Origin: a virus
Lineage: Duplodnaviria; Heunggongvirae; Uroviricota; Caudoviricetes
Reading direction: 5' to 3' (one strand)
DNA: 11,490 bases
Virus record (IMG/VR): IMGVR_UViG_2778261058_000014
Span: 1-11,490 of that record
Positions 8,046 to 11,085 of the stretch are shown one piece after another; the first letter of the stretch is position 1; every line of letters begins with the position of its first letter. The notes under the pieces were generated by a model. The model saw only the letters and a program-made list of their open reading frames with translations, was not told the origin of the DNA and did not search any database. A program made the translations under genes and the position numbers.

Positions 8046-8262
8046 GGTGCACCTCCTGCACATCAGCCATGATAATTTTTCCGGTCTTATCCAGTGCCTG
8101 ATCGGCTTTTAGCTGCACAAATGCTAAATAATGGGAGATGCATTCTGATTCTCTGGCTGCGTGTTTATGCGCCACACCAGCGATAGCAGAAATCTCAATA
8201 AGTGAATCCATCAGCGTTTTGATAGCGTCTACCGCTGCATCAGGCCATGTTGCATTACACAT
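8038..8262 (-). CDS. hypothetical protein, 74 aa
   Basis: ATG at 8262 preceded by AGGAGGTGG; overlaps the stop of the upstream gene. Confidence 0.5.
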   Translation of the reverse strand: MCNATWPDAAVDAIKTLMDSLIEISAIAGVAHKHAARESECISHYLAFVQLKADQALDKTGKIIMADVQEVHHA

Positions 8263-8620
8263 GCTCCACCTCCTGGCGAATACGGGCAGCGAATACCATC
8301 ACGCAGCCATCAGGAGATTGCTGGCGTGCTTCCTGTTCGCTGGTGACCTCGATGTGAATCACGCGCGGTTGTGCCGTACTCAGGGCGATAAAACGCCAGA
8401 TAAAATTGTTTTCGCATTTCTGAATAAACAGCGTGTTTTCTTCGCGCCCTTTCCATGTTGCCGAGATATAGCCCATGTCATTGAGCATCTCGCAGGCATC
8501 AACCAGCGTATCGGCGGCTACGTGTACAGTGTTTTTACCGTCAGCTATGCAATCACGGTGCACCGCCAGGAAGGTGTATATAAATTTAGGGTGAGTTTGG
8601 GTATGCTGTGTTCCAGCCAT
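8255..8620 (-). CDS. hypothetical protein, 121 aa, first gene of the replication operon
   Basis: Internal ATG at 8620 of the 598-aa ORF frame, preceded by AGGAG; the downstream sequence is protein-like, unlike the Ser/Cys-rich upstream part of that frame. Confidence 0.5.
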   Translation of the reverse strand: MAGTQHTQTHPKFIYTFLAVHRDCIADGKNTVHVAADTLVDACEMLNDMGYISATWKGREENTLFIQKCENNFIWRFIALSTAQPRVIHIEVTSEQEARQQSPDGCVMVFAARIRQEVEHV

Positions 8621-8819
8621 AATCGTTACTCCTGTTAACGGTTTGGTTAGAAGCCCCGTTACTGCTCCAACAGTGCGGGGCTTCGTCGTTTCAATTGCTG
8701 AATTGCATGTATCAGCCCTTGTGGTATTCAGATTACATTTTGGTGAATACCATTTCAAGTCTTTTTTGGTATTCACTTTTGTATTACACTGCATCCCGTT
8801 ATTAATCGGAGGTGCAAAC
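8621..8819. promoter_or_regulatory. divergent intergenic control region with a 13-bp-stem palindrome/hairpin and three GGTATTCA half-sites
   Basis: Inverted repeat GAAGCCCCG...CGGGGCTTC at 8650-8684; half-sites at 8723-8730 (direct), 8744-8751 (inverted), 8768-8775 (direct), spaced about two helical turns. Flanked by divergent genes with strong RBSs. Confidence 0.5.
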
Positions 8820-9119
8820 ATGTCCACGAGTTCTGTTAACAATAAGTCACAGCAACTGAATGCCAGATTTCCACATGAAGTAGTGAGTGGCATTGAGGCA
8901 TCCCTACAGCCAGGGGAAACTAAAGCGAATTTTATAGTTACGGCTGTGCGCGGTGAAATCGCCCGCCGCCAGGCAGAAGGAAGCGGAGAAAATCCCCTGG
9001 TTTCTTCGCTCGATGCGCTGGAACAAATGGAAAAAATAGGGGTCGAACTCGCCGAAAATATAGAGCAGCTTGTTTCCGTTGCTCGTGAAGAACTCCAGCG
9101 GCGCAAGGCCAAAGGGTAG
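8820..9119 (+). CDS. hypothetical protein, 99 aa; possible ribbon-helix-helix-type regulator
   Basis: ATG at 8820 preceded by GGAGGTG 5 nt upstream (track ORF starts further upstream at 8643). Sequence LNARFPHEVVSGIEA...KANFIVTAVRGEIARRQ is compatible with an RHH layout; acidic helical C-terminus. Confidence 0.55.
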   Translation: MSTSSVNNKSQQLNARFPHEVVSGIEASLQPGETKANFIVTAVRGEIARRQAEGSGENPLVSSLDALEQMEKIGVELAENIEQLVSVAREELQRRKAKG

Positions 9120-9188
9120 CCAGAATAATCACCATTCGCGCCAGAGCCTAAGGAACTCGAGCGCCAGACTGTAAGCAGGGGGCGAACC

Positions 9189-9368
9189 ATGCCTAAATTA
9201 AAAGATTTTTTAGCCCAGCAAATGGCGAAAGAAATTGCACAAGAAACCGAACAGGGAAAGGTTAAAACCTTCCACCTTGAGCAATTTCTTAAAACGCACA
9301 AGCGCACAAAAATGGGGCTATATACCTGGAAAACATCACGACATGGTGATGTTGAAGAGCAGAAATAA
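9189..9368 (+). CDS. small hypothetical protein, 59 aa
   Basis: ATG at 9189 with a G-rich SD-like stretch upstream; hand translation MPKLKDFLAQQMAKEIAQETEQGK... looks amphipathic. Competes with the track ORF 9235-9429 in another frame. Confidence 0.3.
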   Translation: MPKLKDFLAQQMAKEIAQETEQGKVKTFHLEQFLKTHKRTKMGLYTWKTSRHGDVEEQK

Positions 9369-9425
9369 CCACTATCAGCGCCGTGGTGTGAGGATCCATG
9401 GCACAAAGAAGTATCCAAGAGAAAA

Positions 9426-9608
9426 ATGATGGACGCACAGAAACTAGATATACTCACCTCCTTTCTGGAAGAACGTAAACGAAAATGGGGGATAAAACCC
9501 CATCCTTCCACCAGAGAATTACCAAGAGCATCAACAGAGTGTTTTTTGCTTGAGGATTTCATCAAAAAAAGCAGTCCTGTTTTGTGCAGGAATACGCGAT
9601 ACAAGTAA
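9426..9608 (+). CDS. small hypothetical protein, 60 aa
   Basis: ORF-track entry with a weak SD (AAGAGA); lies upstream of the plus-strand terminator. Low confidence. Confidence 0.25.
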   Translation: MMDAQKLDILTSFLEERKRKWGIKPHPSTRELPRASTECFLLEDFIKKSSPVLCRNTRYK

Positions 9609-9720
9609 CCATTACCCAGTGCAGGCAACAGGGAAAAAATTCCACTAAAGATTTGCCCACCAGCCACAAATGCAGCATTGTTGGCGATGCATTCAGGTTT
9701 GATTTGCCGTAATACCCACT

Positions 9721-9748
9721 GGCGACCCTCTGCGGTCGCCTTTGTTTT
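9721..9748 (+). terminator. rho-independent terminator for the plus-strand cassette
   Basis: GGCGACC-ctctgc-GGTCGCC stem (9721-9740) followed by TTTGTTTT (9741-9748); no U-run on the other strand. Confidence 0.6.
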
Positions 9749-10043
9749 ATCCAGAACGAAACCAGACATCAGATTGATCAGCACCGGACGACCAGAAAAA
9801 ATTGCATCAGTCGCGCCACCAGCAGTATTTTTTGCTTTCCGGACAGCTTGGCCAACGGCATTTTGCAGCAAAATATTCTGCATTTCTGGTGTGCTGTAGT
9901 AACGGTGATCAGTGCCTTCACTCTGTGCGACCACAACGCTATAATCTGCCTCGTAGACAGTAAGCAATATGGCGCAGTAGGCTATTCGTTCACAAAGGCG
10001 CTCCGGCAACGGGGCGCTTTCTCTTTTTGTAACGGTCAGAGCG

Positions 10044-10844
10044 TTACACATGGCTGTTTTCCTCCATGCGACGGGCTAACCAACGCTGCGAAAGACGAAT
10101 TAATTCAGCTTTCCGCTGGTGGTAGCCCTGGCCTAACTCAATCAGCGTGATATTGCTCTGCTCAAGGTAAGAAAGGTGCTCAAGCTGCAACTTGCTCATG
10201 TGGTCGCGTGGTTCGCCTGTGATGCCGTTCGCCTGCGCCCACTGTTTTGCAGTCATGCCACCCAGCACGATACGCGCCAGCATATTGGCTTCCGTGGTGT
10301 AGTGGTGCTGGAACGTGTTTTTACCCAGTTCAGCCCGGTACGCCTCCAGCGCGGCACACATTGGCTTAAAGTAGCTGGCAACGGTGATACGGGCTTTCAG
10401 TTCCCGGCGTAATGCTGCGGAACGCACTGGCGCTACCTTGTGTAGCTCCTCCTCGCATTTGATAAAGTACTGGCGAACGGCGCGGCCCTGTTCGGTACGT
10501 TCGACCATCGCCAGTTCTTTCGCCATGTTCACTGTGATGATGTACTCAAGAGCGGTTTGCTGGCGAGATTTTGCGCTCACCGGATCGGGTCGGCTCAAAT
10601 ATTCAACAACCTCATAATCCACGCCTTCCGTGAACCCGTATTCTTCAATGCGCCCCTTGATCCACGAACGGAAAACGCGCCCTACACCTAACGCCTTATG
10701 TAACGCTCTGGCGCTAACAATAGTGGTTTCACGCCCACCAATAACGCCGGAAATAACCGGAATAATTTCAGCGAAATTTTGCAGATTCTGTTTTTCAGGC
10801 CGAACGAAGCCCCGCCCCTGTACAGGCGTATATCCAGTATTCAT
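10044..10844 (-). CDS. phage antirepressor-like protein (AntA-type N-terminal domain), 266 aa
   Basis: N-terminal segment SARALHKALGVGRVFRSWIKGRIEEYGFTEGVDYEV matches the antirepressor N-terminal signature (from memory). Lies directly downstream of the AlpA gene. Confidence 0.7.
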   Translation of the reverse strand: MNTGYTPVQGRGFVRPEKQNLQNFAEIIPVISGVIGGRETTIVSARALHKALGVGRVFRSWIKGRIEEYGFTEGVDYEVVEYLSRPDPVSAKSRQQTALEYIITVNMAKELAMVERTEQGRAVRQYFIKCEEELHKVAPVRSAALRRELKARITVASYFKPMCAALEAYRAELGKNTFQHHYTTEANMLARIVLGGMTAKQWAQANGITGEPRDHMSKLQLEHLSYLEQSNITLIELGQGYHQRKAELIRLSQRWLARRMEENSHV

Positions 10845-10896
10845 GGTTAAATCTCTGTATTAGTGGATGGGAGGCGGCTGTGTGCCGCCAGCCTGA

Positions 10897-11085
10897 TTAG
10901 TGAACTGCCTCGCGGCTGTCCTTCCATGCCAGAACTTCGGATAAAGACCAGCCAACGGAACGACCACCGAGTTTACGCCGTGATGGGAATTGTCCGGCTT
11001 TTTCCAGGCGGTAGCGGCATGAACGGCTCAGGCCTGTAAGTTGCTGACATTCTTTTTCACGTATAAAGCGATCTGTGCTTAACAC
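10897..11085 (-). CDS. alpA: AlpA-family (prophage CP4-57-type / P4 Vis-like) HTH transcriptional regulator, 62 aa
   Basis: RFIREKECQQLTGLSRSCRYRLEKAGQFP...GGRSVGWSLSEVLAW matches the AlpA-family HTH pattern (from memory). GTG start with GGGGG SD 5 nt upstream. Confidence 0.7.
   Translation of the reverse strand: MLSTDRFIREKECQQLTGLSRSCRYRLEKAGQFPSRRKLGGRSVGWSLSEVLAWKDSREAVH

What the first reader, a model, noticed from the sequence alone, without database searches (positions are those of the whole stretch)
8621..9748. Oppositely oriented cassette with its own operator-bearing promoter and terminator inside an otherwise minus-strand island
A plus-strand gene with a strong RBS (8820), one or two following small ORFs and a clean terminator (9721-9748) is transcribed divergently from the replication operon. 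The shared 200-bp intergenic region has a 13-bp-stem palindrome and three GGTATTCA half-sites at about two-turn spacing, which looks like the island's master switch: a repressor/RHH-type regulator controlling the replication operon. A small toxin-antitoxin-like or regulator-plus-effector pair is an alternative.
Basis: partly seen in the sequence, partly recalled or inferred. Interest (0 to 1): 0.55.

Follow-up and report, generated by a model that had tools for sequence, protein, structure and literature searches.

The report
Phage satellite repressor-operator switch cassette
A small gene pointing the "wrong" way in an E. coli phage-satellite island most likely encodes a DNA-binding repressor that shuts off the island's replication genes through matching sites in the shared promoter region. 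No such repressor appears in the papers I could search for this class of satellites, and the same cassette is present in their laboratory prototype.

Summary
A plus-strand cassette lies between antA and the replication operon of a Gram-negative PICI: a YlcI/YnfO-family gene (8820-9119), a small conserved partner ORF (9189-9368) and an intrinsic terminator (9721-9748). The 199-bp intergenic region holds three exact TGGTATTCA copies spaced 22-23 bp apart, which are the only exact copies in the window.

In about 13 lineages from five genera the intergenic scaffold is conserved, but the four repeat sites change together with the N-terminal segment of YlcI. They do not follow Icd, AlpA or ORF2. The sites overlap both core promoters. 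YlcI is therefore most likely a ribbon-helix-helix-type repressor of the replication operon and of itself.

The palindrome (8650-8684) is a plus-strand RNA hairpin, probably the terminator of an antisense RNA covering the start region of the first operon gene; it is not an operator. The whole cassette also lies antisense inside a stop-free minus-strand ORF (8255-10051). This ORF is coupled to the antA stop and is in frame with the icd/kil-like gene, matching phage P4's eta/kil read-through device.

The prototype EcCICFT073 has the same module. All functions are inferred from sequence.

The parts
8820..9119 (+). ylcI-like gene (99 aa): a putative RHH N-domain (residues about 8-53) plus a long C-terminal helix (59-98). 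Candidate repressor.
8808..8812 (+). Shine-Dalgarno GGAGG of ylcI
   Evidence: Read from the sequence. An SD-like purine run is present in every lineage.
8722..8730 (+). Operator site 1 (TGGTATTCA), at the predicted start site of the leftward promoter
   Evidence: Its position is conserved at about -98 from the ATG, and its sequence changes with YlcI class.
8744..8752 (-). Operator site 2 (TGGTATTCA on minus), inside the 17-nt spacer of the leftward promoter
8767..8775 (+). Operator site 3 (TGGTATTCA), just upstream of the rightward -10
8790..8798 (-). Operator site 4, degenerate here (TGCATCCCG on plus, 6 of 9 to TGAATACCA). It is intact in other lineages, for example Yersinia CTGAATACCAC.
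   Evidence: Positional homology.
8730..8758 (-). Leftward promoter P_L of the icd/kil-like to primase operon: -35 TTGAAA (8758-8753), 17-nt spacer, -10 TAATCT (8735-8730)
   Evidence: Read from the sequence, 8 of 12 to consensus. The homologous site is called by the scan tool at 10 of 12 in L024, L025 and EcCICFT073. It is below the tool's threshold in the window.
8785..8790 (+). Rightward promoter -10 (TACACT), aligned with TATACT of other lineages. The -35 is poor.
   Evidence: Alignment of lineages. Inference.
8650..8684 (+). The 'palindrome' (HP2): a GC-rich plus-strand RNA hairpin followed by a U-rich tail (8685-8697). Candidate terminator of an antisense RNA.
   Evidence: 6 pairs carry compensatory changes. 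96.6% of cells are paired on plus against 87.7% on minus. 16 G.U cells are tolerated only on plus. The scan tool does not call it a terminator because the T-run is interrupted.
8615..8648 (+). HP1: a plus-strand hairpin complementary to the start codon and Shine-Dalgarno of the icd/kil-like gene. Its loop contains CUCCU.
   Evidence: The two-hairpin fold is -35.7 kcal/mol, z -5.7, against -27.4 on the minus strand. The plus strand is 3-16 kcal/mol more stable in all 14 lineages. Stems vary as CGTTA/TAACG and CGATA/TATCG.
8602..8607 (+). -10-like hexamer TATGCT for the candidate antisense RNA. It is weak here and has no good -35.
   Evidence: The same position holds TGgTATAAT or TGaTATGAT (extended -10) in L025, L031, L040, L041 and EcCICFT073.
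8255..8620 (-). icd/kil-like gene, first gene of the replication operon
   Evidence: NCBIfam phage_ICD_like 77 bits. Its N-terminus resembles P4 Kil (blastp E 1e-4).
8255..10051 (-). eta-like read-through ORF (598 codons). It runs antisense through the whole cassette and the promoter region, in frame with the icd/kil-like gene.
   Evidence: 0 stops against 22 and 28 in the other two frames; 0 of 20000 shuffles are open. The same holds in 12 of 14 lineages and, with one stop, in EcCICFT073. Substitutions are 34/38/37 by codon position and indels are 3 and 6 nt. P4 eta has the same layout.
10049..10065 (-). GGAGG (10065-10061) and ATG (10051-10049) of the eta-like ORF. The ATG overlaps the antA stop (10046-10044) by 8 nt.
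   Evidence: Read from the sequence. Identical in all antA-bearing lineages. The same overlap occurs in L003, L005, L006 and L041.
9189..9368 (+). ORF2, a small basic protein that recurs after ylcI in E. coli PICIs. Function unknown.
   Evidence: phrog_21027, E 7e-13. Homologues lie downstream of ylcI in L002, L005, L006, L048, L024 and EcCICFT073.
9426..9608 (+). ORF3, probably not a gene
   Evidence: No hit in any library, not annotated, no homologue. It lies in the rare 9120-9652 segment.
9721..9748 (+). Intrinsic terminator T1 of the cassette, plus strand only
   Evidence: It has no T-run on the minus strand.
9995..10030 (+). Second plus-strand terminator T2, just before the convergent antA end
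   Evidence: 11-pair stem followed by CTCTTTTTGT. Conserved in all lineages aligned.
10044..11085 (-). Context: antA (10044-10844) and alpA (10897-11085), the upstream operon from which read-through would come
   Evidence: Pfam AntA 2.5e-23 and Phage_AlpA 3e-18.

Best explanation
The cassette is the immunity (repressor) module of an enterobacterial phage-inducible chromosomal island. Every functional step below is inferred from sequence; none has been tested.

1. YlcI is a small DNA-binding protein: a probable ribbon-helix-helix N-domain plus a C-terminal helix that could join dimers.
2. It binds four 9-bp sites spaced about 23 bp apart in the 199-bp divergent promoter region.
3. Sites 1 and 2 cover the start site and spacer of the leftward promoter, so YlcI represses the icd/kil-like to primase (replication) operon.
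4. Sites 3 and 4 flank the -10 of its own promoter, so it autoregulates.
5. A second, less certain lock is an antisense RNA of about 85 nt on the plus strand. It consists of the anti-Shine-Dalgarno hairpin HP1 plus the 'palindrome' HP2 as terminator, and covers the ribosome-binding site of the first operon gene.
6. On induction, AlpA-driven transcription of alpA-antA continues leftward. A stop-free ORF coupled to the antA stop is translated antisense across the cassette and the operators into the icd/kil-like gene.
7. As shown for P4 eta, this translation would keep the transcript from being terminated. It would also bypass both locks while interfering with ylcI expression.
For: Family and fold:
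- YlcI/YnfO match of 60 bits against a cut-off of 30.
- A GE(S/T) turn and invariant R16 and P18.

Operators:
- Three exact 9-mers within 54 bp, found nowhere else in the window.
- In about 13 lineages (E. coli, Yersinia, Klebsiella, Enterobacter, a Serratia-like metagenome contig and other metagenomes) the scaffold and site positions are conserved (-98, -75, -53, -29 from the ATG).
- The site sequence is lineage-specific and repeated within each locus. The cross-scan is block-diagonal by the residues of the putative beta-strand.
- The same class gives the same sites across genera, despite diverged spacers.
- QQLNARF to QQIGARF goes with ATTCA to GTTCA.
- Icd is identical in L001, L003, L005 and L006, although the first two carry class A sites, L005 class D and L006 class B. 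AlpA is identical in L005 and L006, and ORF2 is 95% identical in L002 and L005, while in each pair the sites differ.
- The C-terminal half of YlcI recombines independently of the N-terminal half (P0009).

Promoter overlap:
- P_L is called at 10 of 12 at the homologous place in L024, L025 and EcCICFT073.

Antisense RNA.

Read-through ORF. The P4 precedent was checked and is described in PMC10111431 (section 20, citing Forti 1999).

The prototype EcCICFT073 has the module. Its authors state that a global repressor in Gram-negative PICIs is 'unclear' and that AlpA is the activator (PMC6092414).
Against: - There is no experimental evidence for binding, repression, the RNA or translation of the long ORF.
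- The full-length AF2 model places a low-confidence helix where the strand should be.
- Covariation of the sites with the adjacent 5' half of ylcI could partly reflect physical linkage in a recombining block.
- In this window P_L is weak (8 of 12, not called) and site 4 is degenerate.
- The antisense-RNA promoter is poor in this lineage, and the HP2 tail is not a clean T-run.
- AlpA over-expression alone induces EcCICFT073 (PMC6092414). Any repressor must therefore be bypassable or weak.
Confidence: 0.62

Rival explanations
1. The repeats are operators, but for another factor such as AlpA, the Icd/Kil-like protein, ORF2 or a host protein. YlcI would then do something else.
For: No binding data exist. 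AlpA is a known DNA-binding activator of these islands (PMC6092414).
Against: Identical Icd (WP_000929266) is found with different sites: class A in L001 and L003, class D in L005, class B in L006. Identical AlpA (WP_000072422) is found with different sites in L005 and L006. ORF2 is 95% identical in L002 and L005, which also have different sites. A host factor cannot explain lineage-specific sites within a single species.
Confidence: 0.08
2. YlcI and ORF2 form a toxin-antitoxin or regulator-plus-effector pair. The repeats would serve only autoregulation and would not control the replication operon.
For: An RHH antitoxin followed by a small ORF is a common layout. There is a weak Pfam hit to an RHH-clan antitoxin-like family (PSK_trans_fac, E 0.011).
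Against: ORF2 is missing in many lineages that keep ylcI and the sites (L003, L019, L031). It has no toxin or defence family hit. Sites 1 and 2 sit on the leftward promoter, not on ylcI's own promoter.
Confidence: 0.05
3. YlcI has the unknown role of its lambdoid-prophage relatives, which by my recollection sit next to the small terminase gene. That role might be in packaging or cos recognition, and the promoter-region repeats would be unrelated or structural.
For: The family name comes from the prophage genes ylcI and ynfO, whose function is unknown. Short family members occur outside satellites.
Against: The position divergent from the replication operon is conserved across islands with different integrases, primases and late regions. 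The concerted change of sites with protein class is hard to explain without sequence-specific binding.
Confidence: 0.1
4. The 598-codon minus-strand ORF encodes a genuine functional protein, for example a Bro-network protein fused to Icd. In that case the plus-strand ORFs would be shadows.
For: Gene callers sometimes call it (428 aa in L029; 495 aa with a Bro-N hit in L043). PGAP annotates extended Icd-like proteins and a BRO-N pseudogene in this region.
Against: In the conserved 400-nt part, substitutions are equal at the three codon positions, 34/38/37. The translation is Ser/Cys/Arg-rich and has no family hit. YlcI and ORF2 show protein-like conservation and have their own Shine-Dalgarno sequences.
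Confidence: 0.04
5. The palindrome is a protein operator or a 5'-UTR element of the leftward mRNA, and not a plus-strand RNA hairpin.
For: It lies in the leftward 5' UTR. The minus-strand RNA can also fold (-27.4 kcal/mol, z -2.9).
Against: All 16 wobble cells fit the plus strand only. Pairing is 96.6% on plus against 87.7% on minus. The consensus fold is -20.3 against -9.8 kcal/mol. The loop and stem sequences vary freely, unlike a protein-binding site.
Confidence: 0.1

Closest known systems
Phage P4 immunity region: vis - eta/kil nested genes spanning P_LE and the CI RNA (Forti et al. 1999, as summarised in PMC10111431)
   Same: An alpA/vis-family gene lies upstream. A long ORF is coupled to the upstream operon and is in frame with a short kil/icd-like gene. 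It spans the internal constitutive promoter and the immunity determinants. I verified this layout on P4 itself. The Kil and Icd-like N-termini are similar (E 1e-4).
   Different: P4 immunity is a same-strand processed RNA (CI/C4). No C4 or isrK match exists here. In this island the eta-like ORF is 3 to 7 times longer than P4's gap and contains, antisense, a protein repressor gene with its own promoter, operators and terminators.
Phage P22 immI: Mnt and Arc ribbon-helix-helix repressors, divergent Pmnt/Pant promoters, sar antisense RNA (from my own knowledge)
   Same: A small RHH-type repressor with a C-terminal oligomerisation helix is transcribed divergently from an operon it represses. An antirepressor (Ant) gene is in the neighbourhood. 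An antisense RNA covers a ribosome-binding site. The strand motif xNxRxPxEV resembles Arc and Mnt.
   Different: No significant sequence homology was shown. There are four separate sites about 23 bp apart instead of one compact operator. The regulated operon is for replication, not for an antirepressor.
SaPI / Gram-positive PICI Stl (Rpr) master repressor with the divergent stl-str promoters
   Same: It is the functional analogue: a repressor gene divergent from the excision/replication operon of a phage satellite (PMC6092414, introduction).
   Different: Stl proteins are larger HTH repressors relieved by binding a helper protein. Here the island also has the AlpA activator and a read-through bypass, and how the helper relieves YlcI is unknown.
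YlcI/YnfO (DUF3950) proteins of lambdoid prophages DLP12 and Qin
   Same: Same NCBIfam family. The N-terminal 50 residues are shared.
   Different: The prophage members are about 60 aa, lack the C-terminal helix and have no assigned function. By my recollection they sit beside the terminase gene, not at a divergent promoter.
FinP/FinO-traJ and other cis-antisense RNAs that mask a ribosome-binding site
   Same: A two-hairpin antisense RNA complementary to the Shine-Dalgarno and start codon of the first gene of an operon. This island encodes a ProQ/FinO-family protein (4252-4794).
   Different: Expression has not been shown. No ProQ/FinO gene is annotated in EcCICFT073, so the link is not general. 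There is no Rfam match.

Membership tests
YlcI/YnfO family (NCBIfam NF041551) | HMM score above the curated cut-off | tested here: met
   60.4 bits against a cut-off of 30, residues 9-50.
Pfam DUF3950 (PF13132) | Pfam HMM match | tested here: not met
   Not listed at E <= 0.1 for the window protein or at E <= 10 for 20 N-domains.
Ribbon-helix-helix (Arc/MetJ) superfamily | Significant sequence or profile similarity to an RHH family | tested here: not met
   Pfam and PDB profile searches give nothing significant. hhalign to Arc covers 23 columns at 23% probability; to Mnt the probability is 1%.
Ribbon-helix-helix (Arc/MetJ) superfamily | N-terminal strand followed by two helices with a G-x-S/T/N turn; structural match to RHH folds | tested here: inconclusive
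Ribbon-helix-helix (Arc/MetJ) superfamily | Dimer that inserts a beta-sheet into the major groove | not testable with these tools
   Only monomers could be predicted. The indirect evidence is covariation between the strand residues and the sites.
Gram-negative PICI | alpA, pri-rep with a downstream iteron origin, same-strand operon, island size | tested here: met
   AlpA, D5_N/DUF5906 primase, PerC and DUF4222. Iterons at 4800-5140. The 97%-identical island has int at the end, inserted in yifB. The same module is in EcCICFT073.
Gram-negative PICI | Induction and packaging by a helper phage | not testable with these tools
   Known for EcCICFT073 and EcCIMP1 only (PMC6092414, PMC11773190).
P4 eta/kil-type nested read-through ORF | Long ORF in frame with a kil/icd-like gene, starting at the end of the upstream alpA-operon gene | tested here: met
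   Window ORF 8255-10051, with an ATG that overlaps the antA stop by 8 nt and has its own GGAGG. 0 stops against 22 and 28 in the other frames. 12 of 14 lineages have zero stops. P4 has the same layout.
P4 eta/kil-type nested read-through ORF | Translation of the long ORF prevents transcription termination | not testable with these tools
   Inferred from selection for an open frame without amino-acid constraint: substitutions 34/38/37 by codon position, indels of 3 and 6 nt.
C4/CI immunity RNA (Rfam C4, isrK) | Covariance-model match | tested here: not met
   No hit at E <= 1 on the window or at E <= 10 on 8450-10120.
Type II toxin-antitoxin pair | Conserved toxin partner adjacent to the antitoxin | tested here: not met
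   ORF2 has no toxin or defence hit and is absent in several lineages.
cis-antisense regulatory RNA | Conserved structure on the antisense strand with covariation | tested here: met
   HP2 has 6 covarying pairs, 0 of 500 shuffles reach the observed values, and plus exceeds minus. The plus strand is more stable in 14 of 14 lineages.
cis-antisense regulatory RNA | Own promoter and terminator; detectable transcript | tested here: inconclusive
   An extended -10 is present in L025, L031, L040, L041 and EcCICFT073, but the window has only TATGCT. The U-tail is interrupted and not called by the scan. No expression data are available.

The most novel reading that the evidence does not exclude
Enterobacterial PICIs, including the prototype EcCICFT073, carry an undescribed switch with up to three layers.

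1. A family of YlcI-type RHH repressors that come in heteroimmune specificity classes, each with its own four-site operator.
2. A cis-antisense RNA that masks the first gene of the replication operon.
3. An AlpA-driven bypass in which a P4-eta-like ORF, selected only to stay open, is translated antisense straight through the repressor gene and its operators.

In short, P4's RNA immunity would have been replaced by an inverted protein-repressor cassette nested inside the read-through gene.
Probability: 0.35. Interest if true: 0.8.

Novelty: new variant of a known kind. Interest (0 to 1): 0.68.

Why it matters

This cassette is a concrete, testable repressor candidate. It is present in the model island EcCICFT073 and in more than a thousand E. 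coli genomes.

The specificity classes would explain how several islands can coexist in one cell without cross-repression. They also provide a natural set of orthogonal repressor-operator pairs.

The nested antisense arrangement links PICI regulation mechanistically to P4. It would also be an unusually clear case of an ORF kept open for the act of translation and not for its product.

Tried and rejected
- **C4/CI or isrK immunity RNA upstream of icd**, as in P1 and P4: no Rfam match.
- **Distant family members from the 1.8-billion-protein search** (80 proteins): they carry no RHH Pfam domains.
- **Toxin-antitoxin or defence reading**: no PADLOC or Pfam support.
- **ORF3 as a gene**: no support.
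- **The 598-aa ORF as a real protein**: rejected on the codon-position test.
- **Antisense openness as an artefact of YlcI composition**: partly true. Phage-type ylcI genes are also open in that phase in 10 of 12 loci, and synonymous resampling leaves it open 8-32% of the time. This cannot explain the open intergenic region (1% of shuffles) or the open 929-nt downstream part (0 of 20000 shuffles).
- **A ProQ/FinO partner for the antisense RNA**: not general, because no such gene is annotated in EcCICFT073.
- **The original P4 eta paper (PMC94026)**: not available to read.
Full report
**Context**

The window is most of a Gram-negative phage-inducible chromosomal island (PICI). Every gene except the cassette lies on the minus strand:
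- alpA (10897-11085) and antA (10044-10844);
- an icd-like gene (8255-8620), small ORFs, DUF4222 and a D5_N/DUF5906 primase (5164-6969);
- ProQ/FinO, PerC, DUF2213 and DUF4747.

An iteron-rich origin lies at 4800-5140. The closest E. coli relative is 97% identical over 8200-10100. It has a tyrosine integrase at the alpA end and is inserted in yifB beside ilvL.

**Observation**

- GGAGG is followed after 7 nt by the ATG at 8820 of a 99-aa ORF.
- Two further small ORFs follow.
- A plus-strand intrinsic terminator lies at 9721-9748.
- The intergenic region is 199 bp.
- A 14-pair hairpin lies at 8650-8684.
- Three exact TGGTATTCA copies lie at 8722 (+), 8744 (-) and 8767 (+), and they are the only exact copies in the window.

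**The protein**

It belongs to the YlcI/YnfO family (60 bits against a cut-off of 30). The family is small and largely enterobacterial: 80 clusters at 50% identity among 1.8 billion proteins.

An alignment of 35 members shows a conserved core (R16, P18, a GE(S/T) turn, F38, and RGEIARRQ). Variability is concentrated in residues 2-15 and 20-32. The C-terminal half recombines independently of the N-terminal half.

**The operators**

I collected the same module from about 45 loci, using RefSeq E. coli genomes and exact-protein look-ups. Everywhere ylcI is divergent from the first gene of the replication operon. The integrases, AlpA types, primase types and late regions differ between these islands.

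The intergenic region has a fixed scaffold, read on the plus strand:
- a hairpin followed by TTCGTCGTTT;
- site 1, an AT-rich stretch, then site 2;
- GTCAAG and a T-run, then site 3;
- TTTTGTGTATACTG, then site 4;
- the Shine-Dalgarno sequence and the ATG.

The four sites sit at about -98, -75, -53 and -29 from the ATG. Within a locus they resemble each other. Between lineages they differ, and the difference follows residues 11-17 of YlcI:

| Residues 11-17 | Lineages | Site |
|---|---|---|
| QQLNARF | window, Yersinia | (G/C)(T/G)ATTCA |
| QQIGARF | Enterobacter | GGTTCAC |
| K/RQISIRI | E. coli and a metagenome contig | TGTGATT(C/T)A |
| QLTTVRV | E. coli | GTGTTTCA |
| QSLTARI | E. coli and Klebsiella | TGTAAG |
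| QMKNIRF, QIKNVRV | E. coli and a metagenome contig | GTGTGCA |

A cross-scan of each lineage's best 8-mer against all regions is block-diagonal by class. The sites survive between genera while the spacers diverge.

The sites do not follow any other protein:
- Icd is identical in L001, L003, L005 and L006, yet L001 and L003 carry class A sites, L005 class D and L006 class B.
- AlpA is identical in L005 and L006, which have different sites.
- ORF2 is 95% identical in L002 and L005, which have different sites.

Physical linkage could explain co-inheritance of the sites with the 5' half of ylcI. It does not explain why four sites per locus change in concert inside an otherwise conserved scaffold.

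**Promoter geometry (inference from sequence)**

On the minus strand the scaffold reads TTGAC(n), a 17-nt spacer and TAnnnT in every lineage. The scan tool calls this promoter at 10 of 12 in L024, L025 and EcCICFT073. In the window it is TTGAAA-17-TAATCT (8 of 12) and falls below the tool's threshold.

Site 2 fills the spacer and site 1 lies at the predicted start site. Sites 3 and 4 flank the rightward -10 (TACACT at 8785-8790, which aligns with TATACT elsewhere). This layout predicts repression of the replication operon together with autoregulation.

**The palindrome**

In 14 lineages the plus-strand RNA of this region folds 3-16 kcal/mol better than the minus-strand RNA. The consensus folds are -20.3 against -9.8 kcal/mol.

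For the hairpin itself:
- Six pairs carry compensatory changes.
- 96.6% of cells pair on the plus strand against 87.7% on the minus strand.
- All 16 wobble cells are G.U on the plus strand, which would be A.C on the minus strand.

The hairpin is followed by a U-rich tail. It is preceded by a second hairpin (8615-8648) that is the complement of the start codon and Shine-Dalgarno of the icd-like gene. The two-hairpin RNA folds at -35.7 kcal/mol with z -5.7.

A -10-like hexamer sits just upstream of these hairpins, on the plus strand, inside the first codons of the leftward gene:
- TATGCT in the window, which is weak;
- TGgTATAAT or TGaTATGAT, a full extended -10, in L025, L031, L040, L041 and EcCICFT073.

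I read this as a candidate cis-antisense RNA of about 85 nt and not as an operator. Its expression is untested.

**The rest of the cassette**

ORF2 has homologues after ylcI in several E. coli lineages and in EcCICFT073. They share the C-terminal motif F-x-LEQFLK, and the closer ones also RTKMG..TWKTSRHG. Several lineages lack ORF2 altogether. ORF3 has no support.

Segment 9120-9652 is rare, found in only two genomes. Segment 9653-10043 is common, found in roughly 250 genomes, and contains T1 and a second plus-strand terminator T2 at 9995-10030. Neither terminator has a T-run on the minus strand.

**The minus-strand ORF**

One minus-strand frame is stop-free from 10051 to 8255, a span of 598 codons. 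It passes through the antisense of everything described above and runs in frame into the icd-like gene.
- The other two frames carry 22 and 28 stops.
- 0 of 20000 shuffles are open over the whole gap. For the 198-nt intergenic part alone, 1% of shuffles are open.
- Its ATG has its own GGAGG and overlaps the antA stop by 8 nt.

The same holds in 12 of 14 lineages, with 0 stops against 9-28 in the other frames. The start overlaps or abuts the stop of whatever gene lies upstream (antA, Bro-N, DUF4222 or alpA). In the two exceptions the frame closes 5-10 nt before the leftward ATG. EcCICFT073 shows 1, 19 and 28 stops in the three frames.

In the conserved segment, substitutions are equal at the three codon positions (34/38/37), and both indel events are multiples of three. 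The frame, and not the protein, therefore appears to be under selection.

Part of the openness inside ylcI itself is compositional.

This is the layout of phage P4 eta/kil. As summarised in PMC10111431 (section 20, citing Forti 1999):
- it spans the internal constitutive promoter and the immunity RNA;

I confirmed the P4 layout directly. I also found similarity between the N-termini of P4 Kil and the window's icd-like protein.

**Model**

Shown by sequence analysis:
- the anatomy of the region;
- conservation of the module across islands;
- covariation between the sites and the YlcI N-terminal segment;
- strand-specific RNA structure;
- selection for an open frame.

Inferred:
- YlcI represses P_L and its own promoter.
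- The antisense RNA blocks translation of the first operon gene.
- AlpA-driven transcription, with the eta-like ORF translated, crosses the cassette, escapes termination, delivers ribosomes into the operon and interferes with ylcI.

How the helper phage acts on YlcI, if it does, is unknown.

**Comparison and novelty**

The module works like P22 immI (Mnt) or the SaPI stl/str switch. It is built into a P4-type eta/kil frame, with a protein repressor cassette where P4 has RNA immunity; there is no C4 or isrK match here.

The papers I could search do not describe it:
- The founding PICI paper calls a global repressor 'unclear' (PMC6092414).
- The 'Bro zone' description mentions Bro proteins and immunity RNAs only (PMC10111431).
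- A 2026 survey merely lists YlcI/YnfO among PICI genes (PMC13612085).
- A search combining PICI with ribbon-helix-helix found nothing relevant.

I rate it a new variant of known kinds, of real interest to the satellite field. It remains entirely inferential.

Noticed in passing
window 9917-10030 (+): A promoter-like site (TTCACT-17-TATAAT, 9917-9945) is followed by the strong plus-strand terminator T2 (9995-10030). In the alternative allele of a hypervariable 55-nt patch the hexamers stay promoter-like (TTCACA-17-TAAAAT). This could be an RNA of about 80 nt, antisense to the first ~30 codons of the eta-like ORF. The plus-strand fold is -25.1 kcal/mol (z -2.7) against -15.0 (z 0.1) on the minus strand.
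   Followed up: partly
window 4800-5140: Iterons (AACTGTCTACC) in both orientations surround an AT-rich core between the primase and the ProQ/FinO gene. This is probably the island's replication origin.
   Followed up: partly
L047 1035-1214 and L024 3312-3491: A different 59-aa protein with an RHH-like pattern (PFQFRLDPDLREKMEKA...SLAAWIKRIIRKEL). In L047 it occupies the ylcI position beside the icd-like gene. Its similarity to the YlcI N-domain is weak (hhalign P 3e-4).
   Followed up: partly
window 8596-8620 (-) and homologous loci: The first codons of the leftward gene (MAGTQHT, MKNHITH, MFDHITP, MACSHDT) almost always include a His codon CAT (one lineage, MADNQST, lacks it). Its complement supplies the -10-like hexamer of the candidate antisense RNA, so the N-terminal peptide may be constrained by an embedded promoter.
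   Followed up: no
window 1-894 (-): A DUF4747 protein (327 bits) sits at the far end of the island. It looks like an accessory gene of unknown function and has no PADLOC hit.
   Followed up: no
window 10044-10844 (-): The C-terminal part of AntA matches the PADLOC candidate defence family PDC-S22 (E 4e-9).
   Followed up: no
window 3895-3964 (-): Two tandem GC-rich hairpins with U-runs lie directly after perC. They look like a double intrinsic terminator inside the minus-strand gene array.
   Followed up: no
window 8857-8865 (-) and 8290-8298 (-): One-mismatch copies of the operator 9-mer lie inside ylcI codons 13-15 and inside the icd-like gene. They could be auxiliary sites or chance matches: 8 matches with at most one mismatch were found in the window, against 2.5 expected.
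   Followed up: no
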